A stretch of 64,000 nt of DNA from a virus. The position numbers and the translations under genes are program-made. The stretch is taken from the IMG/VR virus record IMGVR_UViG_3300032164_000001. One strand, 5' to 3'. This document shows positions 39,807-56,228 of this stretch, in pieces. Below the pieces are notes generated by a model, which saw nothing but the letters and a program-made list of their open reading frames with translations, was not told the origin of the DNA and did not search any database. How positions within the stretch are numbered: the first letter of the stretch is position 1; each line of letters starts with the position of its first letter.

Positions 39807-40111
39807 GGATTAACGATGCTAAAGGGACCGGTAAATGACGTAGAACTATCTGAAGCACTGATAGTCGAGTTAATAGAAGTTGCAAGGACTCCAGTCTAAC
39901 AGAAGGAAATGACCAGGATGTGGGTAGGTATCATAGTCGGATTCATGTTGGGTATCTGTATCACGTTACTAACAGGACTTTGGATTGAATACCTCGCAAA
40001 CAGAGAATACTGGCTCTTGAAGTTCTTATTCCCACTTTGGATGTCTAGACGTACATTCAAGAGAGCTGTTATTGAACGTGAGATTTTCGCTATCTTCGGA
40101 GATCCAAAGAG

Positions 40112-43698: not shown

Positions 43699-43886
43699 CT
43701 GGAGGACACAGAATGCTCATCTTGATCATGTGCTTGCTACTTGCTCTTTCCGTCATCCTGATCGGCTCACCGGCCTGGAAGAACCCGCCCGTGGGCGTGG
43801 GAATGCTGATCGCCGCAGCCGCAGCGGCCGTCTGCATCTACCAGATGCTTGGCCATCGTTAACAGGCTGCAGGCCTCGTCTGAGGG

Positions 43887-43961
43887 TGCCCGCGGAGGGA
43901 GTCGAACCCCCACCCATCTAGCCTCCTTACGGCGTAGTGCTCACCAATGAGCTACGCGGGC
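43887..43961 (-). ncRNA. Aberrant tRNA-like gene (bulged anticodon stem, loop GTAAGGA)
   Basis: Acceptor GCCCGCG/CGCGGGC, TAGCTCA..GAGC D arm, GGTTCGACTCC T arm. Confidence 0.7.
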
Positions 43962-43965
43962 ACAG

Positions 43966-44134: not shown

Positions 44135-44602
44135 CTATCTGAGCAGCCTGAGACTGCTCAGGTACTTCTTCAACACGCTCCTTGGAGCTGGCTCGAGGCC
44201 AAGAGCCATGAGCTCACCCCTGTAGGGCTCATCTGATTCGCGGATTTGCTTGTGCCTGATGCCGGCAGCCTGAAGCCTGCTGGAGAGCTGCTCGAGCTCG
44301 GCACTGCCGTTGACAGCGAGAACCACGGCGTAGGTGCCCTCGGGCAAGAGCCCGGGAGAAGACTCGCCGGCGGCGTGCACGGCTTGCACCGCAGCCATAC
44401 CACGGGGCAAGTCATCACGGACTACGACGTAATGGGTTGTCGGATTGACTGGTTCGGTTCTAAGGGCGAGGTCGGCGTTAAGGGTGCATGCCTGACTTCC
44501 TGGTTGATGAGATACTCTAGGGTAAGCACGCTGAGTTGCTCTGTCAAGCGGTCGGCGAGCTCTTCTCTGAACGCAACAATAGCATTGGCGCAACCCCAAC
44601 AC
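44135..44602 (-). CDS. Peptidyl-tRNA hydrolase, PTH2 family (true start uncertain)
   Basis: YVVVRDDL..G..AVQAVHA..VVLAV..EL..IRE.D..ALGLEP..L..LRLL. Confidence 0.8.
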   Translation of the reverse strand: MLGLRQCYCCVQRRARRPLDRATQRAYPRVSHQPGSQACTLNADLALRTEPVNPTTHYVVVRDDLPRGMAAVQAVHAAGESSPGLLPEGTYAVVLAVNGSAELEQLSSRLQAAGIRHKQIRESDEPYRGELMALGLEPAPRSVLKKYLSSLRLLR

Positions 44603-44937: not shown

Positions 44938-45759
44938 TTACCTGCGCCAGCCGGATGGTGGCTTGCAGAAACTGGCGCCCGGAAATGCTTGTGGAATCTG
45001 CGCCTTCGGTGCGATGTCAAGATTGACTCCGCGCTTGCGTAGGCCCTCCCTCGAGTCATAGAAGATCTCCAGCACGTCCGCGGGAGCGGTGGTTGCCTTG
45101 ACGAAGCTCACCTCCGAAACACGATGCTCACTGGCCTGGCCAAACCCGGTACCGACGCTCTGCTGAACGAAGTTCACGTTCTCTACATGCTCGCTCTTGA
45201 GTTGATCACCACCGAAGCTGTAGGAGTGACAGCTCGCGTTGTACGCAAAGGTGTCAGGCGCGACGTTCGTCTGGCTCGTACCATATACTGGACTGTGTGA
45301 GGGCGTGTAGTAGTACTGACAAGGCTGGCAGGGAGGATGCGATGTGGTGAGCCGCCAGGTGTGGATGATTGAATCCACGTGCACGTGCTCGTGAAAGACG
45401 GCAAGGCCGATGACGCCCACGTTGCGCGACGTGACTGTCTTCGTGGCATAGGCCTCGGCCAGCTTGGAGAAGATGAACTTGGCCACTTCTTCATTGGAGA
45501 CACGCCAGCCAGGAATGTCGAGGTGAGAGTTGGCCTGGAGCACATAGCCGTTCGAGTTGACACCGGCCAGCTCTCCATCCATCACGGACAGTCCGTCGAC
45601 GGATGGAACGGCTAGGACGCGGGCGTGGCTCCGGTTCAGAATGCGGAGTATGAACTCGCTTCCCTTCCGTCCCTCGATGTAGCACTTGCCTTCGTGTCGC
45701 CACTCACGCACGGACTTGCCATGCACGCGCACCTCGAGCGTGCAGATCCTGCTTTCCAT
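44938..45759 (-). CDS. Conserved hypothetical protein
   Basis: YIEG..RVLAV.SVDGLSV.DG..GYVL..IPGWR..F.F..AYA..NVGVIGLAVF.E; GAGGAG SD. Confidence 0.75.
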   Translation of the reverse strand: MESRICTLEVRVHGKSVREWRHEGKCYIEGRKGSEFILRILNRSHARVLAVPSVDGLSVMDGELAGVNSNGYVLQANSHLDIPGWRVSNEEVAKFIFSKLAEAYATKTVTSRNVGVIGLAVFHEHVHVDSIIHTWRLTTSHPPCQPCQYYYTPSHSPVYGTSQTNVAPDTFAYNASCHSYSFGGDQLKSEHVENVNFVQQSVGTGFGQASEHRVSEVSFVKATTAPADVLEIFYDSREGLRKRGVNLDIAPKAQIPQAFPGASFCKPPSGWRR

Positions 45760-45870
45760 GAATTTTCTCCTCGGTCGTCTTCTGCCAGGCACCACGCCTG
45801 GACTTCATGCGACCACTTTTGCCGTCAACCTTAATCGCCCAGCGAGTCAGCTGTCAAGGCGATTTTTTCA

Positions 45871-45944
45871 TTGACAGGGTAACGGGAATGTACTAAAATA
45901 CGGGCGGCTTGGGTGGGGTAAGGTTATTGTATGTAGGGTTTTCT
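45871..45944 (+). promoter_or_regulatory. Repeat A copy 4
   Basis: TTGACA-17-TAAAAT-ACGGGCGGCTTGGGTGGGGTAAGGTTATTGTATGTAGGG. Confidence 0.85.
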
Positions 45945-46173
45945 GCTTGCCCATCGTCGGAGAAGGGACGTCCATGAAGACGGTGACGATCAGCCTCACA
46001 GCGGGCGCTCTTGATGAGCTCCAGAGCTGGCTCCTCATCAAGCAGGTTGCCGGGCACAACGTTGGCCGTGACTACGACCTGGCGGTTCAAGTGCTGGGGG
46101 CCAAGGACGGCGGGAGGGTGGAACTGGCCGGGCGGGATGAGAATCACATGCACAAAAAAGTAGCATCTAGTTC

Positions 46174-46202
46174 TTGACAGCAGACTCACTCTTTGCTAAA
46201 GT
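46174..46202 (+). promoter_or_regulatory. sigma70-like promoter for the RNA cluster / TROVE-like gene
   Basis: TTGACA-17-TAAAGT. Confidence 0.7.
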
Positions 46203-46240
46203 GGTCACTGTTTGCTGGCTGTACCCGAAAAACTGAATAC

Positions 46241-46441
46241 GCCCCGATAGCCTAACGGTAAAGGCAATTGTAACTTTCCGCTTGTGCACTCGGGTCAGCA
46301 CATGAGCCGCATGAGCCCGTGCAGAGGCGTCGTATTTGCAACATGGCTGGGCACATGCTGTCGCCAGTTGCAGGCTGATCCAATGGCTACAAGCCTACAA
46401 GTCGAGACAATCGATTGGGGGTTCGAATCCCTCTCGGGGCG
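46241..46441 (+). ncRNA. tRNA-scaffold RNA 1: 135-nt structured insert replaces the anticodon loop (Y-RNA-like)
   Basis: Acceptor GCCCCGA/TCGGGGC, D GCCT/AGGC, AC stem ATTGT/ACAAT, T GGGGG-TTCGAAT-CCCTC; insert GCTTGTGC-ACTC-GGGTCAGC..GCTGATCC-AATG-GCTACAAGC. Confidence 0.8.
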
Positions 46442-46480
46442 CCTAAAGGTATGATATAATCGCAGTATTTCGTAAAATCT

Positions 46481-46616
46481 GGAGCGGTAGCCAAAATGGA
46501 AAAGGCACTGGTCAAAGGAACCAGCAAACAGAGCAGCTTCACTACTCGCATCGGATCTCCACCGACGCAATGGGTGCAAGCCTACAAGTATGAAGGTTCG
46601 AATCCTTCCCGCTCCA
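46481..46616 (+). ncRNA. tRNA-scaffold RNA 2: 67-nt variable region carrying the same stem motif
   Basis: Acceptor GGAGCGG/CCGCTCC, AC CTGGT-CAAAGGA-ACCAG, T GAAGG-TTCGAAT-CCTTC; GCTTCACT-ACTC-GC..GC-AATG-GGTGCAAGC. Confidence 0.8.
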
Positions 46617-46666
46617 CTTGGGTCTTCTCGGTTTCCTCGGTCAGGCCTTACTGGGAGGACCCATCA

Positions 46667-46814
46667 AAGTCTTGAGCAACGTGTAATAGGGAGAAGCAGA
46701 CAAGTCAATAGCTCAACGGTAGAGCGCAAGACTAATAATCTTGATGTTATCGGTTCAAATCCGATGTGACGTAGCAAAAAACAGCTTTTCTCACTCGCGC
46801 GTTGCTCAAGACTT
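46667..46814 (+). ncRNA. RNA 3: long stem with AATA/ACTC internal loop enclosing a complete tRNA(AAT)-like cloverleaf (46702-46773)
   Basis: AAGTCTTGAGCAACGTGT-AATA-GGGAGAAGC .. GCTTTTCTC-ACTC-GCGCGTTGCTCAAGACTT; inner GCTC/GAGC, CAAGA-CTAATAA-TCTTG, ATCGG-TTCAAAT-CCGAT. Confidence 0.8.
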
Positions 46815-46830
46815 CTTTCATAGGCTCTTG

Positions 46831-46873
46831 AAATGTCACTCGGTCCTTTGTTGGGCCAATAGCCATTTGGAGG
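46831..46873 (+). promoter_or_regulatory. Leader hairpin with ACTC/AATA loop abutting the Shine-Dalgarno
   Basis: AAATG-TC-ACTC-GGTCC-TTTGTT-GGGCC-AATA-GC-CATTT-GGAGG, 7 nt before ATG 46881. Confidence 0.7.
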
Positions 46874-46880
46874 CCGTTAG

Positions 46881-48761
46881 ATGCAATCCATCGAGGCGCT
46901 CGGTCCAGCCGAGCGCATCATCGAAGCAATCACCAAGTACACTGATCACTGTCAGCATAATCGTCCAGGAACCATCGTTCCTGACGCAAGACAGCTTGTT
47001 GGCGTGCGCTGGGAGCAGGCCATCTGGTGCAAGGAGGGAGAGGAGAAGGTCGTCTACCGTGTGACGAAGACCGGGAAGAAGCAGACAAAGGCACGCATCG
47101 GTGTACTGGAAGCTGACGGGATGGTGAAGGATGCTGGAGTGGAGGTTGCCCGATGGCGAGAGCCAGGGCTGTTCCCTGAGGTTGTGGTGCACCTGTACCG
47201 GCAAGTGGCAGAGGTCTGGAAGCTCGACAACGAGTTCGCTGCCAGGTGGGCCTCGTGGGCCTTCGAGCACGAAGAGAACAGGGACCTGAAGATCCTGCTG
47301 GCCGCGTTCCTGCTGGTGCAGAATCGCTTCGGGGAGAAAGTTCCAGACTCGACACTGGCTGACGAGGACTACCGAACTGTTGGTGAGGCCATGTGCCTGC
47401 TCCGTCGGAAGACGGGCACCTTCAATCCGAAGATGCTCCTGCGTATCGGCGAGGTGCTGGAGCTGCCAGGTGTGATTGCAGTCAACCGTGAGCTCGGATT
47501 TGGACAGACAGGACGAAGGGCGGTGACCGGCCGGTACCGTGGCACGGTGGAGAAGTGGCTCCGATACTACGAGAGCAACCCGGCCGTGCTCGAGATGTTG
47601 GTCAAGGCGGGCTTCCGTCGGTCCATCATGCAACTGTGTCGTGTCGTTGGCTACAAGCCAGAGACCGATGCATTCTTTGCCAAGCTGCGCTGGAAGCAGA
47701 TTCAGGCGAAGGATGGCCGGCGAGGCATGGCGATCGGAAGTACGCTGACGGCGGCGGAGTCGTGGAAGGAACTTGATGAAGCGGAGATCTGCAAGCGCAT
47801 CGTTTCTTCCGGTCTTGGCTGGAAGCGCATCGTGGGCATGCTGCCCTTCGGCGTTACTCCAGCCATCATGGCCGCCGCAATCGAGGGGGAGACCCTGAGC
47901 GACGCGGACCTCGTCATTCTCACACCAACACTGGAGGAGCTCGGCCTGCTCTCCGTACCGGAGATAACGGCACGCTGGAAGAGCGCAACGGAGCGAGCGG
48001 AGAACCAACGGGCGGCCCACATTGCACGTAACGTAAAGTCGGAGGCGGTGAAGGAACAGCTGCAGGTTGCAGTCGAGAAGGCTGTACAGAAGGCCGTCGA
48101 AGAGGTGACTCGTGACCTGCGAGTGTATGTTATTGTTGATAAATCCGGTTCGATGCGAGGAGCGATCGAGCTGGCGAAGGAGTACCTGGCGAAGATGGTG
48201 GTGGCTTTCCCCCTGGACCGGCTGCACGTCTGTGTCTTCAACACCGTCGGGGTGGAAGTACAGATTCGTGTTCCAACAGCGGCTGGAGTATCTCAGGCAT
48301 TCCGTGGGCACACGGCCGGCGGAGGTACGAGTTACGCTGCAGGGGCGTGGTGCCTCTTGCGGGACCACAAGCCAAGGGAAGGCGAGGATGCACTGTTGAT
48401 CTTCGTCGGAGACCAGGAGGACAACGGGGTCGAGCAGCTCGTGCAAGTGGTGAAGGGGTCAGGTGTAGCACCAGTGGCCTTCGGCATGCTACACGTGGCA
48501 AGTGCACCGGGAATGCAGCATGGAGGCTGGTACGGCTCGCCGGATGTTGTGGAACGTGCGGCGCAGGCCCTTGCCATCCCCTGTTTCAAGATAGCGGAGG
48601 AGATCTTCTCCGACGCGTACGCAGTGCCACGGACACTACGCAACCTGATTGCATCCACTCCGGTCACGCATCCGACAATGCGCAAGACGGCGCCAAAGCG
48701 CAAGTCGCTCATCGAACAAATCTTGTCGACGCCACTTCTACAGCGTCCAGTATGGGCGTAG
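46881..48761 (+). CDS. vWA-domain protein with helical N-terminal region, Ro60/TROVE-like
   Basis: MIDAS motifs IVDKSGSM, GGGTS, FVGDQED (clear). DNEFAARWASWAF..RD..LLAAFLL resembles the TROVE N-terminus, and size and architecture match Ro60 (inference). Confidence 0.7.
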   Translation: MQSIEALGPAERIIEAITKYTDHCQHNRPGTIVPDARQLVGVRWEQAIWCKEGEEKVVYRVTKTGKKQTKARIGVLEADGMVKDAGVEVARWREPGLFPEVVVHLYRQVAEVWKLDNEFAARWASWAFEHEENRDLKILLAAFLLVQNRFGEKVPDSTLADEDYRTVGEAMCLLRRKTGTFNPKMLLRIGEVLELPGVIAVNRELGFGQTGRRAVTGRYRGTVEKWLRYYESNPAVLEMLVKAGFRRSIMQLCRVVGYKPETDAFFAKLRWKQIQAKDGRRGMAIGSTLTAAESWKELDEAEICKRIVSSGLGWKRIVGMLPFGVTPAIMAAAIEGETLSDADLVILTPTLEELGLLSVPEITARWKSATERAENQRAAHIARNVKSEAVKEQLQVAVEKAVQKAVEEVTRDLRVYVIVDKSGSMRGAIELAKEYLAKMVVAFPLDRLHVCVFNTVGVEVQIRVPTAAGVSQAFRGHTAGGGTSYAAGAWCLLRDHKPREGEDALLIFVGDQEDNGVEQLVQVVKGSGVAPVAFGMLHVASAPGMQHGGWYGSPDVVERAAQALAIPCFKIAEEIFSDAYAVPRTLRNLIASTPVTHPTMRKTAPKRKSLIEQILSTPLLQRPVWA

Positions 48762-48764
48762 CAA

Positions 48765-49334
48765 ATGATTTACAGTCTTATCTTCACACATTGGAGCTAT
48801 CTCAAATATGTGCTATGGCACAAATACTACGTAGGAGTTGAGTGCTTCAAAGAAGGACTGTGGTGGCGGGGGTTGAAGCATGACTGGCACAAGTTTCTCC
48901 CTTCAGAGTTTCTGCCCTACTCGAACTTCTTCTACGGTCCCAATGGAAAGAACAACACAATCCGGGACAAGACTGGTTATTACAAACCTACCGATACAGG
49001 CAACAAAGCGTTTGATCGTGCTTGGTTCTGCCATCAGAAAAGAGCGGACCACCATTGGCAGTGGTGGGTCATGCCCGAAGATACCCAAGGTGTTAAGATT
49101 CTTCCCATGAGCGCACCAGCCATTGTGGAAATGATGAGTGATTGGTGCGGGGCTAGCAGAGCCCAGGGTCACGGTGGTTGGACTAGCCCCTCAGGAGTTT
49201 TTGCTTGGTATGCTACCAATGGACACAAGATGCAACTGCATCCGCAGACACGAGCTGTGATAGAAATGGCGCTGCGCACAAAAGGAGCTGATAGTTCCAA
49301 CACCAGATGGGGGTCGGAGAAGAAGCAGGATTGA
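48765..49334 (+). CDS. DUF5662-like HD-type protein
   Basis: HK.YV..HDWHKF.PSEF..AW..H..HHWQWW..PM..EM..DW. Confidence 0.75.
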   Translation: MIYSLIFTHWSYLKYVLWHKYYVGVECFKEGLWWRGLKHDWHKFLPSEFLPYSNFFYGPNGKNNTIRDKTGYYKPTDTGNKAFDRAWFCHQKRADHHWQWWVMPEDTQGVKILPMSAPAIVEMMSDWCGASRAQGHGGWTSPSGVFAWYATNGHKMQLHPQTRAVIEMALRTKGADSSNTRWGSEKKQD

Positions 49335-49567
49335 ATTGACCAATATGCCTACTACAGAAGCCTATCGACAGGGTTGGGAGAGGATTTTTGGTCCTGATCC
49401 CTGCCCATGGTGTGGCAACTGTGATGACGCTGATGATGAACCCTTGAGCCAGCACAAGTTGATGACACCAGCAGAGGAACTAACTTGTTCTCACTGTGGT
49501 CGTTGCATGAAAGAGAGTTGCGAACAACTTGTACAACGTCCTGTTTGGACTTAAGAAAGGCTAAATC

Positions 49568-49978
49568 ATGACACGCCCATTCGTACAGAGCATGGACATG
49601 AAGATCGAGGCCAGCAAGAAAGAATTGTTGGTCATCTTGAAGAACAATCGGGAGACTCACAAGAAGATTCTCTCTGAGGCCAGAGAAGGCTACATCAAGG
49701 CCGCAAGGGCTGCAATCGAGCACAAGCTGGACGAGCTCAGAACTGGCGAGTGTGTGCGTCTCACCTTTCACTTGAGCCCGCCACAGGACTACACTGCAAC
49801 CTACGACACGGTCATCAAGATGGCTGAGCTGCACCAGGCCGACACCATCACGCTGAGCGCCAATGAGGTTAGATGCCTCATGATGGACGAGTGGGATTGG
49901 ATGGATCAATTCCTGGTGATGAACAAAGCGTACTCGGGTCTCGCCAATGCGTATGCAGACGCCAAGGGCATCGTATGA
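49568..49978 (+). CDS. Conserved phage hypothetical protein
   Basis: L..NR..H..EA..GY..P..Y..YD..I.M..DEWDW. Confidence 0.65.
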   Translation: MTRPFVQSMDMKIEASKKELLVILKNNRETHKKILSEAREGYIKAARAAIEHKLDELRTGECVRLTFHLSPPQDYTATYDTVIKMAELHQADTITLSANEVRCLMMDEWDWMDQFLVMNKAYSGLANAYADAKGIV

Positions 49979-50355
49979 GCACTATGCATCAGAGCGTGCA
50001 ACATGCCTATCGGGTGATAAGACTGTTGACAAATACAGCGGTGCGCGAAGGGCGCATCCATCCGAAAGATGCCGATAGTTTCTTCGCCAGCGAATTGAAG
50101 GATTGGCTTGTTGGCTCACATCTCCCTATTCCAGGATGGCTGGGCGGCATTGGCGGACCAGTGGCAGAGAAGATCAAGACAGAAGGTATACGGGTTGCGG
50201 CGGGAGTGATCGGAAAGAGAGGACTGTCTGGTGGACAGATTGCCTTCATCGTGATCGGCGCGGTGGTACTCGTGTCAGCCATAGCCATAGCCTGGCATTG
50301 GTGGAAAAATGACCATGCAGGCATCGTATCCGCAACAGAGAGAGCAAGAGTGTGA
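49975..50355 (+). CDS. Membrane protein, hypothetical
   Basis: C-terminal TM; ATGA overlap. Confidence 0.5.
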   Translation: MSTMHQSVQHAYRVIRLLTNTAVREGRIHPKDADSFFASELKDWLVGSHLPIPGWLGGIGGPVAEKIKTEGIRVAAGVIGKRGLSGGQIAFIVIGAVVLVSAIAIAWHWWKNDHAGIVSATERARV

Positions 50356-50669
50356 ACAGGAAGAAGAAAGTAATCAAGCGGCTCAAGGTGATACGACCGA
50401 AAGCAGCAAGACGGACAAAGGTCGATGAGACATCTGTCGACGAGACGCCCATGGAAAAGGGGCATTTCTTGCGCTGGTTGGAACAAGAGCAAGACGCCGG
50501 GCGCATTGGCAGGTGCGGCTGTCCCGAGAAGTTCAAGGGCATCGATTGCCCCGCATGTCATGGAACTGGCATTGCCAGAATCCATGAGGCCTGGCCGTTG
50601 ATCGTCGAGTACGTGACGACAATGACCCGGCCCGTGACAATCTCGGACGTCATGTTGCAAATCATGTGA
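50352..50669 (+). CDS. Hypothetical Cys-containing protein
   Basis: CGC..CPACHGTG. Confidence 0.5.
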   Translation: MNRKKKVIKRLKVIRPKAARRTKVDETSVDETPMEKGHFLRWLEQEQDAGRIGRCGCPEKFKGIDCPACHGTGIARIHEAWPLIVEYVTTMTRPVTISDVMLQIM

Positions 50670-50690
50670 GTAAAGGCAACGGGAGCTGCA

Positions 50691-52361
50691 ATGACGATTC
50701 ACGAAAAGGTGCTACGCTTCGAACTATTGGCCTCGAGTTCTACTGAACTGAATTGGCTCGACGCCGCCTTCGTTCGCGCCGCCCTGGAAGTCAGAGCAGG
50801 TGCCTGCGACGATGATGAAGATCTGACTCTGCGACTGATTGAGACTCCGGTGGCTCAGCCCGTCTTCAAAGCCGTCGCTCATCCAGGTGTGACGCTGCGG
50901 GGCCTGATGCGAGATACAACACCCCACGACTTTGCGGCAATGATCTCCAACACGGGTTACCGCCTGTCCAAGGGATACATCGAGAGCATTCTTGCTGGAA
51001 GTAGTGACATCACCCCCTTGGCCGCCGAATGCATCGCGGAGGTCTTTGGCCCCTCCAAGGAATACTGGCTGCAACAGCAGGCGGACTACAATGCCTGGCG
51101 GCTGCACCACGACGCAGAATCCGTAGAAGCCCGAAGGTTCGATGCAGACATGGATCAGAACAAAGAAATCTGTGCGAATGCCGAACCAGCCAGTCCGAAC
51201 CAGCAGTGTGACGCCAACCAGCCGATCTGGAGAGTAGTAGCAGAGGCCTTGTGGGGCATCCTTGACGACATCAGCACGGCCGGCGACATCGCAAAGGGGG
51301 ACGATGCGATGTACCGCGCGATGGTCGAGGACCTGCAGGCCAAGAAGAGTAACTACCTGGTCTCCTACGACGGGCAGACGCTCGTTCGCACTGGCGGTGA
51401 ACCGCCCCCGAATCCGCCCGTGGAAATGAGTACGCCAAGCAAGCCGAATGTCCTTCATCCGGGTGAGACACTGAAGATGATACTGAGGGAACGCAACCTC
51501 TCCATCGACGACTTGATCTCTTTCATCCGCAAGCTCTATCCGACCTGCGTCGACTTCGGTCCTGATCGCATCGCTCTCCTTCTCCAGGGCGAGGCAGACA
51601 TCTCCATCGACATTGCCTCGATGTTGCAAGGGGCTCTCGGTCCTACGCCATCGGCCTCATTGTGGCTGCAATGGCAAGCAGACTATAGCGCCCGTGCAGA
51701 GGCAGTGTATCTACAACAAGGAACGCCCGTGCAGAGGCGTCCAGTCGCGTCTTTGACGGAACAGCTGCAGGGTCGAGTCGCATGGCTCGAGCGTCAGATG
51801 GACACATGGGCAGAGCGCATCCGCAACCTCGAGAAGACGCTGGACGCCTGGCAAGAGACATCCTACACAGATCCCTGCAAGGAGTGCCAGGATTGCGGTT
51901 GCCTCTTTCTCCCCAGTGGAAACGAGAGAGATGCCACATTCAAGTGCCGACGCTGTACATCTCGGGTTGATCCTGCCGCACCGCCCAAGTGGGCGATCAT
52001 GTCGGAGCGAGACGAGGCGCCTGACAAGGCACCTGAGCCGAATGCCCCTTCGCCGTGGGCACAAATCCCCGATGCTCTGCTGGAGACACTGGCCGAGTAC
52101 GCGCACACGGCCTGGTCGGGCTGGATGCAATACATACTCCAGCAGTGCCTCGGCGGTGAGGTGGCCGTGATAGATATGCGCCAGCCCAGTCCTGGCATCC
52201 CATTGTCGGGTGTGGCGGTCATTCCCTCCGAATTGGTTGAACGATGGAGCAGGCAGATGCACACGACCTACGCCGATCTGCCGGAGGAGGAGAAGAAGAG
52301 CGACAGACTGGAGGCGCGGCGGATACTCGTCGGTCTTCGCACAGCGAAGGCGGTACCGTGA
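50691..52361 (+). CDS. Mosaic protein with two HigA-like HTH domains, a Zn ribbon and a C-terminal RyR-like domain
   Basis: HPG..L..IT...A...FG.S..YWL..Q..Y twice; CQDC..CRRC; AEYAH..W..W..Q..T.YADLPEEEK.SDR. Confidence 0.7.
   Translation: MTIHEKVLRFELLASSSTELNWLDAAFVRAALEVRAGACDDDEDLTLRLIETPVAQPVFKAVAHPGVTLRGLMRDTTPHDFAAMISNTGYRLSKGYIESILAGSSDITPLAAECIAEVFGPSKEYWLQQQADYNAWRLHHDAESVEARRFDADMDQNKEICANAEPASPNQQCDANQPIWRVVAEALWGILDDISTAGDIAKGDDAMYRAMVEDLQAKKSNYLVSYDGQTLVRTGGEPPPNPPVEMSTPSKPNVLHPGETLKMILRERNLSIDDLISFIRKLYPTCVDFGPDRIALLLQGEADISIDIASMLQGALGPTPSASLWLQWQADYSARAEAVYLQQGTPVQRRPVASLTEQLQGRVAWLERQMDTWAERIRNLEKTLDAWQETSYTDPCKECQDCGCLFLPSGNERDATFKCRRCTSRVDPAAPPKWAIMSERDEAPDKAPEPNAPSPWAQIPDALLETLAEYAHTAWSGWMQYILQQCLGGEVAVIDMRQPSPGIPLSGVAVIPSELVERWSRQMHTTYADLPEEEKKSDRLEARRILVGLRTAKAVP
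51690..51740 (+). repeat. Dispersed repeat B, one full and one partial copy inside CDS
   Basis: GCCCGTGCAGAGGCAGTGTATCTACAAC and GCCCGTGCAGAGGCGT. Confidence 0.85.
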
Positions 52362-53047
52362 GCAACAAGTGCGACGAAGACATCTACGAGAACGGCCGAA
52401 CGGTGCTGGTTATCGGCGATGAGTTCTCCGTGAACACGATCGAGGCCTTCGTGCAGAAAATCGCACGTCGGTCGGGTCAGAAGGTCGACTGGCACTTCAT
52501 CGCCGGCCGGGCCGCCCTCAGAGCCAAGGCCAACACGCAGGGCCTGCACAAGGTGGATGAGGCCATCTACGGCTGTCCCGACGAGGTGGCCGCCTGGTGG
52601 AAAGCAGAGCTCGAGAAGAGTGGACGCGTCGCATACAAGGACTGCATCATGCGTTGCACGGGTGGGCTCTTGCTAGAACTCATGACCACCAAGAAGCCCA
52701 GTGAGGCGACCGGCACGGTCGACTACTGCAGTCCGCTCTATGGTTACCATCCGGGTGGTGACAACCACTGGGCACGCGACGAACTGGGACTGGAAGCGTT
52801 CAACATGGCGAATAAGGTTGTCGTGGGCGCTTTGCGCCAGCACGTCCCAGTCGCCATCAGCTGGGTCTGCCCTGGATGCCAGACGCGAAACAAGTGCGAC
52901 TACTCCGATGAGCACTACTTCGCAGACCCAAAGATCAATGCAGTCTTCGCGATCAACTTATGCTGTCCAGAGTGCAGCAAGGAAGTGGAGATCTTCGTGA
53001 AGCTACACTTGACACTCAGCCTCCATGCGAGATTGGAGAATGGCTAG
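52358..53047 (+). CDS. Hypothetical protein with C-terminal Zn ribbon
   Basis: SGQKVDWHFIAGRA; CPGC..CPEC. Confidence 0.6.
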   Translation: MSNKCDEDIYENGRTVLVIGDEFSVNTIEAFVQKIARRSGQKVDWHFIAGRAALRAKANTQGLHKVDEAIYGCPDEVAAWWKAELEKSGRVAYKDCIMRCTGGLLLELMTTKKPSEATGTVDYCSPLYGYHPGGDNHWARDELGLEAFNMANKVVVGALRQHVPVAISWVCPGCQTRNKCDYSDEHYFADPKINAVFAINLCCPECSKEVEIFVKLHLTLSLHARLENG

Positions 53048-53995
53048 ATGGTCTGGGAGAACCTGCTTCAGCACGCGGCGTCAGGCTACTTCGCATTCCC
53101 CTGGCTCGGCGGGCGAAAGATACACGGCAATGGGCGCACCTGGCGTGTCGTCAACAAGTTGCCTCCGGAGTTCGGATGGTGTCTGTTCGAGCTCAAGGGG
53201 GGTCGAACGGCGAAGTACTGCGAACAGGCAGAGCCATTGGCGAACTGGGAAAACGAGCATCACACAACCCGTGGGTACATTGTCGGGGATAGGTTCATCC
53301 CGGAGAGGGCTCGAGTAGATCCCGATCCAGAGAGACTGGCAGAACAGACAATCGCAGTGTATCTGGTGGAGCGAGGACTGGATCGCTTCGCACCGTGCTT
53401 GGTGGCTTTCGAAGAGGAGAATAGAGCAATCTTCGTTCGTCAGCTATTCGACTCCGTAGTCGAGGAAAAGGCGCGTGAGGCCTTCATCGATCGAAGGGTT
53501 GACATTGCCTCCATCCGCGATGTTCCACCTGCTCTGGACTTGGCTTTTCGCTTCGCGAGTCGACAGAGGGAACTCGTGGAGCGACGTAGATTAGAGCTCG
53601 AGAAGCAACGACTGGAAGAAGAACGTCGAGAGGCTGCACTGAAGAGCATCGGCACGGGGCTCGGACGACGGCAGCTGGCGACGACAGATTTTGCTGCAGC
53701 GGCTCGAGCTGCTCTGGCCGTGTCCGGGGCAGAGTTTCTGGATGCGCGCGAGGCTCACGGGCGAAATGAGATGATCGTGCAGTACCGTTTCATGAATCGT
53801 CGCTTCGAGTGCGTTGTAGATCGACTGACACTGAGATTGACGGACAGCGGTGTATGCCTACAGGACCATCGTGGAGTGAAAGGGGACACCAGGTTCACAC
53901 TGGAGTCAATCCCAGGAGTGATCTCCGAGGCGATTCGAGAGAACAAACTGCACATCTACCGCCATGTCGACGACGAGGAAGAAGATTACTGGTAG
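53048..53995 (+). CDS. Putative E2-like (Ubl-conjugating) protein
   Basis: C-terminal DSGVCL resembles the E2 catalytic G.[IV]CL segment followed by a helix (TLESIPGVISEAI); adjacent to JAB/Ubl/E1. Confidence 0.45.
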   Translation: MVWENLLQHAASGYFAFPWLGGRKIHGNGRTWRVVNKLPPEFGWCLFELKGGRTAKYCEQAEPLANWENEHHTTRGYIVGDRFIPERARVDPDPERLAEQTIAVYLVERGLDRFAPCLVAFEEENRAIFVRQLFDSVVEEKAREAFIDRRVDIASIRDVPPALDLAFRFASRQRELVERRRLELEKQRLEEERREAALKSIGTGLGRRQLATTDFAAAARAALAVSGAEFLDAREAHGRNEMIVQYRFMNRRFECVVDRLTLRLTDSGVCLQDHRGVKGDTRFTLESIPGVISEAIRENKLHIYRHVDDEEEDYW

Positions 53996-54082
53996 AAATC
54001 AAGAGTGCGCACAACAACGAGATTGATTGCTGATGTCACGAGAACACAAAGTGTCGGGCTGTGACGATTGTCCAGCTCTTTG

Positions 54083-54110
54083 GCCCGTGCAGAGGCATCG
54101 TATTTGCAAC
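54083..54110 (+). repeat. Dispersed repeat B
   Basis: GCCCGTGCAGAGGCATCGTATTTGCAAC upstream of the JAB gene. Confidence 0.85.
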
Positions 54111-54124
54111 TGGAAGGCAAGAAG

Positions 54125-54526
54125 ATGGTAGAAGTGGCTCTGGTGTTCAACAGGCATGGGGTCGGTCTACAATGGCACAGGCCGAATGGGAAATGCTCGC
54201 ATGGTGGCATTGGAGATGATCGCGGTCTGTGGGAATTCTTGTGGGCAAACCGGAAAGAAGTTGGTGGTGTGGCGCACACACATCCATGGGATGGACCGGC
54301 TGGACCATCAGGAACGGATGTAACGACATTCTCGGCGATAGAGAGAGGCTTAGGGGTCAAACTGGTGTGGCCAATCGTGACATTGACGGAGATCGGCTAC
54401 TTCGAATGGGTTGGTCCGGACAAGCACGATTATGGCGATATGCGACTGCGCAGGTTCCGTTTGGATCCAGCGGACATCGCAGAACTGCGAGAGCTTTCAT
54501 TGAAAGGAGATAACGGAAATGGCTGA
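54125..54526 (+). CDS. JAB/MPN+ (JAMM) metallopeptidase
   Basis: N-terminal Glu (MVEVA) plus HTHP..PSGTD. Confidence 0.85.
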   Translation: MVEVALVFNRHGVGLQWHRPNGKCSHGGIGDDRGLWEFLWANRKEVGGVAHTHPWDGPAGPSGTDVTTFSAIERGLGVKLVWPIVTLTEIGYFEWVGPDKHDYGDMRLRRFRLDPADIAELRELSLKGDNGNG

Positions 54527-54827
54527 TATGGTTGTTTACGATGTGCCAATGGCCAGACTCAATATCACATGGTCCGGGCAGAACGGAGACAATCCGGACT
54601 TGGTCCCGTGGGATTCATCGGATGCAGACATCCGGCGCATCGCAACGGAGGCCGTGTGCACTGGGTACGTCGCTGGCATCCCGGCTGATCCGAATGTGGA
54701 CTTCACAGACTTCGTCGTCGACCGCTTCCCGGCGACGGACGAACTGCCGTATAGATGCTTCGTCAGATCGAAAACCCCCTTTGGAGGTTTTACGCGCTTG
54801 ACTAGAATCGTTGCGCTAGTGCGCTAG
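54519..54827 (+). CDS. Ubiquitin-like (beta-grasp) protein precursor with internal GG and 12-aa tail
   Basis: ARLNITW..SDADIRRIATEAV..CFVRSKTPFGG-FTRLTRIVALVR; overlaps the JAB gene. Confidence 0.6.
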   Translation: MADMVVYDVPMARLNITWSGQNGDNPDLVPWDSSDADIRRIATEAVCTGYVAGIPADPNVDFTDFVVDRFPATDELPYRCFVRSKTPFGGFTRLTRIVALVR

Positions 54828-54843: not shown

Positions 54844-55632
54844 ATGCAAGACGTACAAGACGTACTCACACAACTATTGAGAAACAACACACAGCTTTCG
54901 AATGCCAAGAAGGCACACCTGATTGAGACGATGGCCGTGTATCGGATCGTGCGAGAAGTAATCGGGGAATCCACAGCCAGTGCCGTGCTGACACTGACGG
55001 CAGCGATAGCAAATCTTCATGCCACATTACAGCTCGGACTGACTTCCCCGTCTCACCTGTCCCAGAACGGCGCCCCACCTTGGGCGCCTACACCAATGCC
55101 CACAGCGCAGTCGCCTGTACAGGCTCCTGCACCAATGCCCGTGGCACTTGCCGCCACGGTGCCAGAGAGCAAGAAGCCGAAGAAAAAAGTAGCCCCCCTC
55201 GGCAAAGGCTATACGCTGATGGTAACCAAGACTGAACTTCGCACATCCGGTCAAGAGAATAAGTACATGAATACAACCTTTGTGATAACGCGCGCTCCTG
55301 ATCAGATAGACGAACCGGGACAGACGCCGGAGAAGTTCGAAGAATTCAGACAATCCGTCGGGATGGCAATCGCTGAACAGCGACTCATGCTGGAGGGGAA
55401 CGGGACGCCCTTGACAGTGGAATTCTTGATCGCATGCGGCATTGACATACCCCCTGACCTCATCACATTGGACATAAGCAAGCCCATCTACAGGTTGGTG
55501 ACGGCAGAAGTCAAGTTCTATGACAAATTCAACAATGAAGAACACGAAAAACTTCGGAACTACCGACCTGTTGACTGCTCACAGGAGCGCTTGATCGAAC
55601 AAGTTCTCAGTTCTGGCCCGGGGTCAATCTGA
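54844..55632 (+). CDS. Hypothetical protein with Pro/Ala linker
   Basis: 262 aa, AGGAG SD, overlaps E1 start. Confidence 0.65.
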   Translation: MQDVQDVLTQLLRNNTQLSNAKKAHLIETMAVYRIVREVIGESTASAVLTLTAAIANLHATLQLGLTSPSHLSQNGAPPWAPTPMPTAQSPVQAPAPMPVALAATVPESKKPKKKVAPLGKGYTLMVTKTELRTSGQENKYMNTTFVITRAPDQIDEPGQTPEKFEEFRQSVGMAIAEQRLMLEGNGTPLTVEFLIACGIDIPPDLITLDISKPIYRLVTAEVKFYDKFNNEEHEKLRNYRPVDCSQERLIEQVLSSGPGSI

Positions 55633-56228
55633 TGCAAAAGGAGCGGCCCTGGCCAAAGGTTGCCGTTGTCGGAATAGGCGCCCTGGGTTCGCATGTCGTC
55701 TTGCTTGCTCGGAATTGGAAGGCGAAGCTGCGTGTCATCGACGGCGACAAGGTCGAGCAGAAGAATGTGCTGGCACAGATGCATTCAGAGCTAGGGAAGG
55801 GGAGGAACAAGGCTGCGGCACTTAAGGTGTTGATGCAGGGCATGTTCCGCCTGGAGATAGAAGCCTTCCCCGTGAAGGTCAACGAATGGAACTTGAAGGG
55901 GCTGCTCGGTGAGATGGCGCTGATCATCGACTGCACCGACAACGTGGCGGCTCGAAACTGCATCAAGTCGTTTGCACTGAAGGATGAGATTCCTTGCCTG
56001 CATGTGTGCTTATCGGCTGATGGAATGCTGGCCCGAGTGGTGTGGGCTCAACAGAACTTCAAGGCTGACAAAGAGAGTGGAGACGGAGCGACGTGTGAGG
56101 ACGGGGCGAATGTGTGGTTCCACGCGATGGCGGCTGCACTCGTCGTGCGACTGGCCCAGCAGTTCCTGCTCGATGGTCGAATGGAAAGCTGGATGCTTGC
56201 GCCAGCAGCTCTCCTCAGGATAGCATAG
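55632..56228 (+). CDS. ThiF/MoeB/E1-family adenylyltransferase
   Basis: VVGIGALGS, IDGDKVEQKN..Q, NKA, IIDCTDN..AR; candidate Cys in ATCE. Confidence 0.9.
   Translation: MQKERPWPKVAVVGIGALGSHVVLLARNWKAKLRVIDGDKVEQKNVLAQMHSELGKGRNKAAALKVLMQGMFRLEIEAFPVKVNEWNLKGLLGEMALIIDCTDNVAARNCIKSFALKDEIPCLHVCLSADGMLARVVWAQQNFKADKESGDGATCEDGANVWFHAMAAALVVRLAQQFLLDGRMESWMLAPAALLRIA

What the first reader, a model, noticed from the sequence alone, without database searches (positions are those of the whole stretch)
46174..48761. Ro60/TROVE-like gene preceded by three tRNA-scaffolded RNAs carrying one shared stem motif grafted in three different topologies
Seen: one promoter (46174) precedes three tRNA-like cloverleaves. 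Each contains a helix interrupted by the same 4x4 internal loop, ACUC opposite AAUR, while the flanking stems differ in sequence but still pair. In RNA1 the module replaces the anticodon loop. In RNA2 it is the variable arm. In RNA3 it encloses the whole tRNA with reversed strand order. RNA1 and RNA2 also share CAAGCCTACAAG 3' of the module. Established: bacterial and phage Ro60 orthologues are encoded next to Y RNAs, and YrlA is a circularly permuted tRNA mimic whose Ro-binding stem sits at the anticodon-arm position. Inference: these are non-permuted, modular Y-like RNAs, in which a protein-binding tag presents different intact tRNA faces as decoys, tethers or substrates. I do not know of this three-topology arrangement being described.
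Basis: partly seen in the sequence, partly recalled or inferred. Interest (0 to 1): 0.92.

Follow-up and report, generated by a model that had tools for sequence, protein, structure and literature searches.

The report
Phage tRNA-shaped RNAs beside Ro60-like gene
A large phage encodes three tRNA-shaped small RNAs that all carry one conserved two-helix "handle", directly upstream of a very divergent Ro60-type ring protein gene; handle and gene recur together in many huge phages, so this looks like a new relative of the Ro60/Y-RNA particles used in RNA surveillance.

Summary
At 46241-46814 three tRNA-shaped RNAs carry the same module: helix X, a 4x4 loop ACUC/AAUR, helix Y, then CUACAAG or AGACAAG. 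The module lies in the anticodon loop (RNA1), in the variable arm (RNA2) and around a whole tRNA-Ile(AAU) (RNA3). A fourth, module-like hairpin abuts the Shine-Dalgarno sequence of the downstream gene.

A covariance model built from relatives finds the module about 70 times near homologous genes. This holds in huge-phage contigs and in an independent set of genome bins, always on the gene strand. All 13 pairs covary (94% paired). Only CUC+G and ACA(A/C)G are invariant. A fourth topology, circularly permuted like YrlA, exists in relatives.

ORF 46881-48761 has no Pfam TROVE match. Its N-terminal 410 residues nevertheless match only Ro60 structures strongly (Z 11.9, 9.2, 9.1; next 6.1). Its C-terminus is a vWA domain with an intact MIDAS motif.

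The gene belongs to a conserved cassette with a 315-aa protein, a JAB peptidase, a ubiquitin-like protein and an E1.

Best reading (0.55): the module is the docking site of the Ro60-like protein, giving Y-RNA-like particles that display tRNA shapes. Binding and function are untested.

The module is not in Rfam, and I found no paper describing it. This scan has reported the same system before on other DNA.

The parts
46174..46202 (+). Sigma-70-like promoter ahead of the RNA array
   Evidence: TTGACA, 17 nt, TAAAGT with a TG extension; 10 of 12 matches. Similar TTGACA-N17 sites precede the RNA arrays of L002 and L003 (read directly).
46241..46443 (+). RNA1: tRNA scaffold with intact acceptor, D, T and a 5-bp anticodon-type stem; the anticodon loop is replaced by a 130-nt insert (46272-46401) that holds the module
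   Evidence: ARAGORN with introns allowed. MFE fold z = -3.6. The 3' end reads G-CCU.
46275..46401 (+). Module of RNA1. X5' 46280-46287, ACUC 46288-46291, Y 46292-46381 (8-bp stem closing a 74-nt extension), AAUG 46382-46385, X3' 46386-46394, CUACAAG 46395-46401
   Evidence: Model R2 hit, 28 bits, E 9.5e-5. Sequence read.
46481..46617 (+). RNA2: tRNA-like RNA with the module in the variable-arm position. The anticodon-type loop CAAAGGA has A, not U, at position 33
   Evidence: Rfam tRNA 43.5 bits with a 65-nt insertion. Fold. Loop read.
46531..46588 (+). Module of RNA2. X5' 46536-46543, ACUC 46544-46547, Y hairpin 46548-46568, AAUG 46569-46572, X3' 46573-46581, CUACAAG 46582-46588
   Evidence: Model R2 hit, 23.1 bits, E 2.3e-3. 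Model R1 hit, 18.6 bits.
46619..46663 (+). Stable hairpin between RNA2 and RNA3, with no U tract after it; role unknown
   Evidence: Fold.
46667..46814 (+). RNA3: module split around a tRNA. Y5' 46667-46684, AAUA 46685-46688, X3' 46689-46697, AGACAAG 46698-46704, tRNA, X5' 46784-46792, ACUC 46793-46796, Y3' 46797-46814
   Evidence: 18-bp and 9-bp helices. Fold z = -6.7. Found by the enclosing-form scan.
46702..46773 (+). tRNA-Ile with the unusual anticodon AAU and two A-G mismatches in the acceptor stem, enclosed by RNA3
   Evidence: ARAGORN. Rfam tRNA 56.3 bits.
46831..46873 (+). Module-like hairpin in the mRNA leader: AAAUGUC / ACUC / GGUCC-loop-GGGCC / AAUA / GCCAUUU, directly followed by the Shine-Dalgarno GGAGG (46869-46873). 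A candidate operator
   Evidence: Read. CUCG-hairpin-A-rich elements just before the Shine-Dalgarno sequence occur 7 times in 46 loci against 1.4 expected. It lacks the ACAAG junction and is not hit by R2.
46881..48761 (+). Ro60-like gene (626 aa). Residues 1-410 form a TROVE-like helical ring domain with a beta insert at about 24-93. Residues 411-593 form a vWA domain with a MIDAS motif (D420, S422, S424)
   Evidence: There is no Pfam TROVE hit.
53048..53995 (+). 315-aa cassette protein of no known family. It directly follows the Ro60-like gene in most relatives; here it is separated from it by a 4.3-kb insertion (48765-53047)
   Evidence: tblastn finds it in 59 of 63 loci. No Pfam, NCBIfam or atlas hit.
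54068..54526 (+). JAB/MPN peptidase of the cassette
   Evidence: Weak Pfam Prok-JAB hit. Found in 42 of 63 loci, a count limited by flank length.
54519..54827 (+). Small ubiquitin-like protein candidate that ends in ...FGG followed by a 12-residue tail
   Evidence: Translation. Homologues lie between JAB and E1 in relatives.
55632..56228 (+). ThiF/E1-type adenylating enzyme of the cassette
   Evidence: Pfam ThiF E 1e-19. NCBIfam ThiF/MoeB-type hits.

Best explanation
The three RNAs belong to a previously undescribed family of tRNA-scaffolded non-coding RNAs of huge phages.

Their common element is a module with these parts:
- helix X, about 8 bp, closed by G-C and C-G pairs;
- an internal loop with an invariant CUC on one strand and an A-rich strand opposite;
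- helix Y;
- conserved single-stranded junctions, ACaCC on the 5' side and (C/A)UACA(A/C)G on the 3' side, that lead into the tRNA body.

I propose that the module is a protein-docking handle, most probably for the Ro60-like ring protein encoded next to it. The resulting particles would work like Ro60/Y-RNA particles: the protein holds the handle, and the tRNA-shaped part is displayed.

The displayed part is either a mimic with an intact elbow and acceptor end but an anticodon loop that mostly lacks U33, or a real tRNA still held by its leader and trailer. It could recruit, titrate or be acted on by tRNA-binding factors. A module-like copy at the ribosome-binding site of the gene would let free protein repress its own synthesis.

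Shown: the RNA family, its structure and covariation, its several topologies, its linkage to the gene, and the Ro60-like fold.

Inferred: which protein binds the module, autoregulation, the decoy or tether role, and any link to the neighbouring Ubl, JAB and E1 enzymes.
For: 1. Real structured RNA.
- 33 non-seed-dominated hits are 94% paired, and all 13 pairs change on both sides. The covariation score is 0.84, against 0.26 in shuffles and at most 0.18 when partners are slid.
- An independent set from genome bins replicates this: 89.9% paired, 0.66 against 0.19.
- CUC, the following G, and ACA..G are invariant in 33 of 33.

2. Strand and place.
- All 48 hits and all 23 hits lie on the gene strand.
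- In five whole phage records (1.37 Mb), 12 of 14 hits lie inside the 7.9-kb locus of the gene.
- In other records the hits lie just after the E1 gene.

3. Search starting from the RNA. Two DNA-pattern scans of all IMG/VR contigs were validated with the model and gave 12 contigs. Eight hold the Ro60-like gene. The four without it are fragments, 5-27% complete or 10 kb long.

4. Not a general tRNA signal. Only one or a few tRNAs of an array are enclosed; in L003 it is 1 of 12.

5. Protein.
- An unbiased structural search with the N-domain model against 48,161 chains puts three Ro60 structures on top: 1yvp Z 11.9 with 297 aligned residues, 2nvo Z 9.2, phage 9l5y Z 9.1. The next hit is Z 6.1.
- Foldseek with the full-length model lists Ro60/TROVE entries first (E 1.9e-7).
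- The nearest language-model clusters are TROVE/DUF2828 (0.86, a lead only).
- The vWA domain scores Z 15, and its MIDAS residues are invariant.

6. Analogy. Known Ro60 proteins bind a stem-bulge-stem, and their Y RNAs are encoded next to the gene, in phages too (PMC4201824, PMC12135203). Permuted units in relatives give full-length but sub-threshold YrlA alignments (30.1 and 23.9 bits).

7. Leader copy at the Shine-Dalgarno sequence.
Against: - No binding data exist, and no tool here can model RNA-protein contact.
- The Pfam TROVE model does not see the protein. For helical repeat proteins, Z values near 12 can arise without homology.
- The module lacks the GNCGAA/CGAA motif of known Rsr and Ro60 sites.
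- The 315-aa cassette protein is linked just as tightly (59 of 63 loci) and could be the binder instead.
- In one complete phage, five module RNAs sit in the tRNA array 230 kb from the gene. Two records with the gene show no module at E <= 0.01.
- About half of the IMG/VR loci, and the 35-40% identity bacterial clade, have no model hit within 3-4 kb. Divergent enclosing units are visible by eye in at least one of these, L135.
- The enrichment in the leader is modest and rests on a loose pattern with a high background.
Confidence: 0.55

Rival explanations
1. The module is a docking or regulatory site for a different partner: the 315-aa cassette protein, the Ubl/E1/JAB machinery, or a host factor. 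The Ro60-like protein would then act on other RNAs. For example, the cassette could modify the displayed tRNA, by thiolation through a Ubl-thiocarboxylate as in TtuB/TtuC or Urm1/Uba4, or it could tag proteins captured on the RNA.
For: - The 315-aa protein, JAB, Ubl and E1 travel with the Ro60-like gene (59, 42 and 23 of 63 loci, counts limited by flank length). They also do so in bacterial bins.
- Module RNAs often lie after the E1 gene rather than before the Ro60-like gene.
- Ubl, E1 and JAB trios serve as sulfur carriers for tRNA thiolation in known systems (established knowledge).
- The E1 scores best against ThiF/MoeB-type models.
Against: - No RNA-binding or thiolation domain (PP-loop) was detected in the 315-aa protein.
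- The Ro60 fold is the only recognisable RNA-binding scaffold in the cassette.
- The stem / internal loop / stem is the kind of site that Ro60 proteins bind.
Confidence: 0.2
2. The module is a cis-acting processing or stability signal of the phage tRNA-array transcript, for example an RNase III, RNase E or RNase P guide or a protective stem. It would have no dedicated protein. Linkage to the cassette would arise only because tRNA arrays lie next to the cassette.
For: - The modules sit inside tRNA arrays. One cluster lies 230 kb from the gene.
- In the enclosing form the conserved heptamer ends 0-4 nt from the tRNA 5' end. This resembles the leader/trailer stems of rRNA and T7 RNase III sites.
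- RNA3's helices total about 27 bp.
Against: - Most copies (about 45 of 52) are grafted inside tRNA-like bodies in the variable-arm position. There, cleavage would destroy the RNA, and the anticodon loops are non-decoding.
- Only one or a few tRNAs per array carry the module.
- The loop and junction nucleotides are invariant, beyond what a double-stranded RNA cleavage site needs.
- The RNA-first search found the gene in every near-complete contig.
Confidence: 0.15
3. RNA1 and RNA2 are ordinary decoding tRNAs that carry an intron or a long extra arm, and the shared motif is a splice or insertion signal of a small mobile element.
For: ARAGORN, when allowed introns, restores a 7-nt loop UUCGAGA (anticodon CGA) in RNA1 by removing exactly 130 nt. 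In archaea, introns at several tRNA positions and leader-trailer helices share one recognition motif (established knowledge).
Against: - The intron boundaries were free parameters of the program.
- A Ser anticodon sits on a body that lacks the long variable arm.
- No group I or other intron or ribozyme family matches. The loop is a symmetric 4x4 loop, not a bulge-helix-bulge.
- Only 14 of 41 scaffold loops have U33.
- The RNAs are conserved as whole units across phages.
Confidence: 0.04

Closest known systems
Bacterial and phage Ro60 (Rsr) with YrlA-type Y RNAs (Salmonella and Mycobacterium YrlA, mycobacteriophage YrlA; PMC4201824)
   Same: - A ring protein with a C-terminal vWA/MIDAS domain.
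- One to several small RNAs encoded next to it on the same strand.
- The RNAs contain a tRNA-like domain with T and D arms.
- A stem with an internal loop or bulge serves as the presumed protein site.
- Relatives of this locus even contain circularly permuted units that align end to end with the YrlA model, below threshold.
   Different: - The protein is not detected by Pfam TROVE and carries an extra beta subdomain.
- The RNAs fail Rfam YrlA (none in the window; 22-30 bits in relatives against a cut-off of 69).
- The conserved nucleotides are CUC and ACAAG, not GNCGAA.
- The handle leaves the tRNA body at the variable-arm position, and an anticodon arm is kept.
- The same handle is used in four topologies, including around complete tRNAs.
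- The gene is fixed in a cassette with Ubl, JAB and E1 genes rather than with RtcB/RtcA.
Thermus phage phiLo Ro60 with Yrl1/Yrl2 (PDB 9kop, 9l5y; PMC12135203)
   Same: A phage-encoded Ro60 with Y-like RNAs upstream of the gene. It is among the three best structural matches of the N-domain (Z 9.1) and is the top Foldseek hit of the full model.
   Different: About 15% sequence identity. The phiLo RNAs have the CGAA bulge and are not tRNA-scaffolded in the way seen here. That phage has no Ubl cassette reported.
Class II tRNAs (Leu, Ser, bacterial Tyr) with long variable arms, and intron-bearing tRNA genes
   Same: A cloverleaf with an extra helix between the anticodon and T arms (RNA2). An insertion in the anticodon loop (RNA1).
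   Different: - The arm is 45 to more than 120 nt long, with a conserved internal loop and junctions.
- The anticodon loops mostly lack U33.
- They are not called as tRNAs by ARAGORN without the intron option.
- The insert has no group I core.
Prokaryotic Ubl systems with E1 and JAB (Thermus TtuB/TtuC, archaeal SAMP/UbaA, bacterial Bil-type systems)
   Same: A neighbouring small protein ending in Gly-Gly plus a tail, a JAB peptidase and a ThiF-type E1.
   Different: None of these is known to be coupled to a Ro60-like protein or to tRNA-scaffolded RNAs. I found no paper linking them. One Asgard-virus preprint lists Ro60 and E1 genes separately in one virus.

Membership tests
Ro60 / TROVE protein family | Match to the Pfam TROVE model (PF05731) | tested here: not met
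   No hit at E <= 1 for the protein. No hit in six-frame searches of five related phage records, while the control rang in Deinococcus radiodurans. No PDB sequence or profile hit to Ro60.
Ro60 / TROVE protein family | Alpha-helical repeat ring fold of Ro60 | tested here: met
   N-domain model (pLDDT 82.6, pTM 0.70) against 48,161 chains. The only matches with Z >= 8 are 1yvp_A (11.9, 297 aligned), 2nvo_A (9.2) and 9l5y_B (9.1); the next is 6.1. Ring closure itself was not inspected. Helical repeats can reach such Z values by chance.
Ro60 / TROVE protein family | C-terminal vWA domain with a MIDAS motif | tested here: met
   Residues 411-593 give Z 15.0 to vWA domains. D420, S422, S424, T483 and D511 are invariant in 44 homologues. 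Pfam VWA hits are weak.
Ro60 / TROVE protein family | Binds a Y RNA or misfolded RNA | not testable with these tools
   Only genomic adjacency of candidate RNAs could be shown.
YrlA / Y RNA (Rfam RF02553) | Score at or above the Rfam gathering threshold (69 bits) | tested here: not met
   No YrlA match in window 45000-49500 at E <= 10. Permuted units in relatives reach 21.8-30.1 bits.
YrlA / Y RNA (Rfam RF02553) | Encoded next to the Ro60 gene and containing a tRNA-like T/D-arm domain | tested here: met
   RNA1-3 lie 64-640 nt upstream on the same strand. tRNA features are shown.
YrlA / Y RNA (Rfam RF02553) | Rsr-binding motif GNCGAAN0-1G (CGAA) in the terminal stem (PMC4201824, PMC12135203) | tested here: not met
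   The module consensus of 33 copies has CUC+G and ACA(A/C)G as its invariant positions and no CGAA. The only CGAA in these RNAs is the T-loop UUCGAAU.
Decoding tRNA | Cloverleaf with a 7-nt anticodon loop, U33 and a purine at position 37 | tested here: inconclusive
   Met by the tRNA inside RNA3 (56.3 bits), though its acceptor stem has two A-G mismatches. RNA2 has A33. RNA1 has no anticodon loop unless 130 nt are removed. Family-wide, U33 occurs in 14 of 41 scaffolds.
Self-splicing or self-cleaving RNA (group I intron, small ribozymes) | Match to any Rfam intron or ribozyme model | tested here: not met
   Nothing at E <= 10 in the window region, and nothing at E <= 1 in eight related loci.

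The most novel reading that the evidence does not exclude
The handle couples tRNA shapes to a protein-tagging machine. The Ro60-like ring would hold tRNA mimics that keep an anticodon-like loop but lack U33, as uncleavable baits for host tRNA-targeting defence nucleases or other tRNA-binding factors. The adjacent Ubl, E1, JAB and 315-aa enzymes would then tag or inactivate whatever is caught, or modify the displayed RNA itself. That would be an RNA-guided ubiquitin-like system in phages and Myxococcota.
Probability: 0.12. Interest if true: 0.93.

Novelty: new variant of a known kind. Interest (0 to 1): 0.8.

Why it matters
Ro60/Y-RNA particles are conserved from bacteria to humans, yet how Y RNAs direct Ro60 is still poorly understood.

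This locus offers a natural experiment. One covarying RNA handle is grafted onto tRNA bodies in four different ways, next to a Ro60-like protein so divergent that sequence models miss it.

If the handle is the protein's site, three things follow:
- It defines a new RNA-recognition mode for the Ro60 fold.
- It gives a portable tag for displaying tRNA-shaped RNAs.
- It extends Ro60-type surveillance to hundreds of huge phages and to Myxococcota.

The fixed linkage to a ubiquitin-like conjugation or sulfur-carrier set suggests an unexplored link between RNA particles and protein, or RNA, modification during phage infection. The RNA family is also missing from Rfam, and tRNA finders mis-call or skip it, which matters for annotation.

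Tried and rejected
- Sequence-level homology to Ro60: Pfam, PHROGs, NCBIfam, and phmmer or profile searches against PDB gave only weak vWA hits.
- Foldseek with the N-domain alone gave no match at E <= 0.001; Ro60 entries were scattered at E 0.03-0.24. The Foldseek-independent aligner was needed.
- The second-look alignment of the full model was swamped by vWA domains.
- No whole genome is held for the window.
- Expression: no RNA holder is listed.
- Fused or longer forms: none of at least 1097 aa was found. Two 708- and 716-aa open frames in relatives are only upstream non-coding read-through, not Ubl fusions.
- A module-like hit at 39888-39991 lies in coding sequence and looks like chance.
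- Five pattern-scan contigs without a model hit were treated as chance matches.
- A simple 'CUC + hairpin + A-rich' scan has a high background (225 hits on the plus strand, 143 on the minus strand). It supports the leader-operator idea only weakly.
- The protein atlas gave nothing for the 315-aa cassette protein.
- A third covariance model for the enclosing form was not built. A scripted scan with strand and shuffle controls was used instead.
- No complex prediction was run, because the tool cannot take RNA.


Full report
**What is in the window**

The 64-kb window looks like part of a large phage from sediment metagenomes. It has long runs of plus-strand ORFs, including large structural-size genes, and its closest deposited relative for the gene of interest is an uncultured 197-kb Caudoviricetes record.

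A promoter-like site lies at 46174-46202. Three tRNA-shaped RNAs follow it.

- RNA1 (46241-46443) has normal acceptor, D and T arms and a 5-bp anticodon-type stem. The loop of that stem is replaced by 130 nt (46272-46401). ARAGORN calls it a tRNA only when introns are allowed.
- RNA2 (46481-46617) matches the Rfam tRNA model at 43.5 bits, with a 65-nt insertion in the variable region.
- RNA3 (46667-46814) is a long, interrupted stem that encloses tRNA-Ile(AAU) at 46702-46773.

In all three, a helix I call X is separated from a second helix, Y, by ACUC opposite AAUG or AAUA. The 3' strand of X is followed by CUACAAG (AGACAAG in RNA3).

The topology is consistent across the three. X always faces the tRNA body and Y always points away. 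Y is capped by a hairpin in RNA1 and RNA2, and it carries the 5' and 3' ends in RNA3.

**Is it more than chance?**

The bare loop-plus-helices pattern gives a few chance hits per window, so I tested it through relatives.

The protein has more than 2000 homologues in metagenomes. I fetched 62 loci from IMG/VR, mostly from contigs of 100-600 kb. In the nearest relatives, L002 and L003, the same arrangement is visible by eye: several tRNA-like RNAs with the module, then an enclosed tRNA-Ile, then the gene.

A covariance model built from ten copies in other phages (A4, model R1), and a second-round model (R2), gave these results:
- 48 matches in 470 kb, all on the strand of the gene.
- Window RNA1 scored 28 bits (E 9.5e-5) and RNA2 scored 23.1 bits (E 2.3e-3), although neither was used to build the models.

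On 33 matches, 94% of cells are paired and all 13 pairs show changes on both sides. The covariation score is 0.84, against 0.26 for shuffles and at most 0.18 for slid partners. These counts lean toward the model because the alignment was fitted to it.

An independent set of 59 loci from genome bins gave 23 further matches, again all on the gene strand. Those are 89.9% paired, with scores of 0.66 against 0.19.

The family consensus is: ACaCC, then G-C-(5-6 nt), then N-N-CUC, then a G-started hairpin, then an A-rich 4-6 nt stretch, then (5-6 nt)-G-C, then (C/A)UACA(A/C)G. CUC, the following G, and ACA..G are invariant in 33 of 33 copies.

**Topologies**

About 45 of 52 contiguous copies are followed within 5-23 nt by a T arm. 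These lie in the variable-arm position of a tRNA-like body.

The anticodon-type loops of these bodies are usually 7 nt and often follow C32...A37A38, but only 14 of 41 have U33. They are mimics, not decoders.

A scripted scan for the split form (Y5' / A-rich / X3' / heptamer / 70-105 nt / X5' / CUC / Y3') found 33 cases on the gene strand. It found 1 on the opposite strand and 1.3 in shuffles.
- About 20 of the 33 hold a tRNA in normal order. ARAGORN of these, and each begins 0-4 nt from the end of the heptamer.
- About 11 begin with the T arm, followed by a closed acceptor-like hairpin, a D arm and an anticodon arm. That is a circularly permuted tRNA mimic like YrlA.
- Some of these 11, inside tandem arrays, may be cross-pairings between neighbouring units.

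Rfam's YrlA model aligns end to end with two such units, but far below threshold (30.1 and 23.9 bits against 69). The anticodon-loop graft of RNA1 is the only one of its kind that I saw.

**The protein**

Sequence methods see only a weak vWA domain. The Pfam TROVE model finds nothing in five related phage genomes, although it works on the control genome.

The AlphaFold model of the whole protein has pLDDT 84. Its best Foldseek matches are Ro60/TROVE structures over about 540-590 columns (E 1.9e-7 to 1e-5), but with low TM-scores.

The N-terminal 410 residues were folded alone (pLDDT 82.6, pTM 0.70) and compared with 48,161 representative chains without any prefilter. Three matches reach Z >= 8, and all three are Ro60: Xenopus 1yvp (11.9, 297 aligned), Deinococcus Rsr 2nvo (9.2) and phage phiLo 9l5y (9.1). 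The next chain scores 6.1.

The nearest language-model clusters are TROVE and DUF2828 families (0.86, a lead only).

Residues 411-593 are a vWA domain (Z 15) with invariant MIDAS residues. A beta-rich insert at about 24-93 has no counterpart in Ro60.

I therefore call the protein Ro60-like in fold and architecture. It is not a member by the sequence definition.

**Linkage between the RNA and the gene**

- In five whole phage records (1.37 Mb), 12 of 14 module hits fall inside the 7.9-kb locus of the gene.
- In five further records, two have a copy just beyond the E1 gene, one has five copies inside its tRNA array 230 kb away, and two have none at E <= 0.01.
- Starting from the RNA instead: two pattern scans of all IMG/VR contigs, validated with the model, gave 12 contigs. 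Eight hold the gene, including three that the protein-based scan had not found. The four without it are fragments.
- Only one or a few tRNAs of each array are enclosed, which argues against a general tRNA-processing signal.

The linkage is not absolute. About half of the IMG/VR loci, and the whole 35-40% identity clade in Myxococcota chromosomes, have no contiguous-model hit within 3-4 kb. At least one such locus (L135) nevertheless shows, by eye, an enclosed tRNA-Ile(AAU) and a permuted unit with ACUC and CCUACACG directly upstream of the gene.

**Gene context**

In 59 of 63 loci the gene is followed at once by a homologue of window ORF 53048-53995, a 315-aa protein of no known family. A JAB peptidase, a small protein ending in Gly-Gly plus a tail, and a ThiF-type E1 come next.

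In this window, a 4.3-kb block (48765-53047; a DUF5662 gene and others) is inserted between the Ro60-like gene and the rest of the cassette.

Earlier notes of this scan describe the same cassette on many other genomes. My tblastn results agree with them.

**A fourth copy in the leader**

At 46831-46868 the mRNA leader folds as AAAUGUC / ACUC / GGUCC-loop-GGGCC / AAUA / GCCAUUU, and the Shine-Dalgarno GGAGG follows directly.

Comparable CUCG-hairpin-A-rich elements abut, or sequester, the Shine-Dalgarno sequence in L002, L018, L033, L054 and L059. That is 7 hits against 1.4 expected, but the pattern used has a high background. This is suggestive of feedback by a module-binding protein, not proof.

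**How it most likely works**

Known Ro60 proteins grip a stem / bulge / stem of a Y RNA encoded next to the gene. The rest of the Y RNA, tRNA-like in YrlA, tethers partners or gates the ring. Phage phiLo Ro60 does this with host PNPase (PMC4201824, PMC12135203).

The anatomy here is the same in kind: a conserved, interrupted helix joined to a tRNA shape, next to a Ro60-fold gene. I therefore favour the reading (0.55) that the module is the handle by which the Ro60-like protein holds tRNA mimics and selected tRNA precursors.

What the particle does is open. It might act as a decoy for tRNA-targeting host factors, as a tether, or as a substrate presenter for the Ubl/E1/JAB set. The loss of U33 with retention of anticodon-like loops fits a non-decoding bait, but that is inference.

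Rivals:
- Another cassette protein or the Ubl machinery is the binder or actor (0.20).
- The module is a protein-independent processing or stability signal (0.15).
- RNA1 and RNA2 are intron-bearing decoding tRNAs (0.04).

**Comparison and novelty**

The system works like Ro60/YrlA, but it fails the membership tests of both Pfam TROVE and Rfam YrlA and lacks the CGAA-type site. The handle, its variable-arm placement, its use in four topologies and the Ubl-cassette context are new as far as I can tell.

Rfam 15 has no matching family, and four full-text searches found no description. A jumbo-phage survey mentions only canonical ROT/TROVE proteins. An Asgard-virus preprint lists Ro60 and E1 genes separately.

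I rate it a new variant of a known kind, of high interest. The scan has met the same system before on other DNA. All functional claims still await experiments.

Noticed in passing
window 46702-46773; L003 2807-2882; L005 1248-1320; L015 1528-1601; L055 1998-2070; L135 3675-3748: The tRNAs enclosed by the module, or lying just before the gene, often have A at the wobble position: Ile-AAU four times, Asn-AUU and Leu-AAG. His-AUG and Asp-AUC occur nearby in L020 and L040. Such anticodons are rare in bacteria; A34 in the Asn, His and Asp boxes would replace the G/queuosine position.
   Followed up: partly
related loci, e.g. L003 2286-2292, L046 and L074: The anticodon-type loops of the scaffolds fall into recurring classes over covarying stems. 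CGGUAAA occurs three times and equals the tRNA-Tyr loop with U33 changed to G. Others are UGUGGAA, UUUUGG-type and CAUCCAA. This suggests that each scaffold class mimics a particular tRNA.
   Followed up: partly
window 48765-53047: A 4.3-kb block separates the Ro60-like gene from the rest of its cassette. It holds a DUF5662 gene, two small ORFs, a 556-aa protein with a weak HTH/antitoxin-like PHROG hit, and a 267-aa Cys-rich ORF. In 59 of 63 relatives the two parts are adjacent, and none of these inserted genes has a homologue in the related loci.
   Followed up: partly
window 43884-43962 (- strand) and 44135-44602 (- strand): A tRNA-Leu(AAG) on the opposite strand lies 2.3 kb upstream, next to an ORF that has one homologue in L051. 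Earlier notes of the scan call the ORF Pth2-like and mention a second aberrant tRNA-like gene there. I did not examine either.
   Followed up: no
window 46619-46663: A very stable hairpin, about 14 bp with a small internal branch, lies between RNA2 and RNA3. It has no U tract and no counterpart that I looked for in relatives.
   Followed up: no
protein P0077: One homologue of the Ro60-like protein is 1043 aa long and carries intein and homing-endonuclease domains (PF14528, PF14890). The gene can evidently host an intein.
   Followed up: no
L130-L164: A 35-40% identity clade of the gene sits in multi-megabase contigs of Myxococcota and a few other bacteria (Verrucomicrobiales, Leptonemataceae, and the actinomycetes Spirillospora and Micromonosporaceae). 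It lies in the same cassette, often with a single tRNA just upstream or between the first two genes. The system is therefore not confined to phages.
   Followed up: partly
L007 1864-2182; L064 1000-1850; L104 380-1372: In tandem arrays the X and Y strands of neighbouring units are similar enough to pair in alternative registers, within a unit or across units. Array transcripts could therefore switch between hairpin and enclosing conformations.
   Followed up: no
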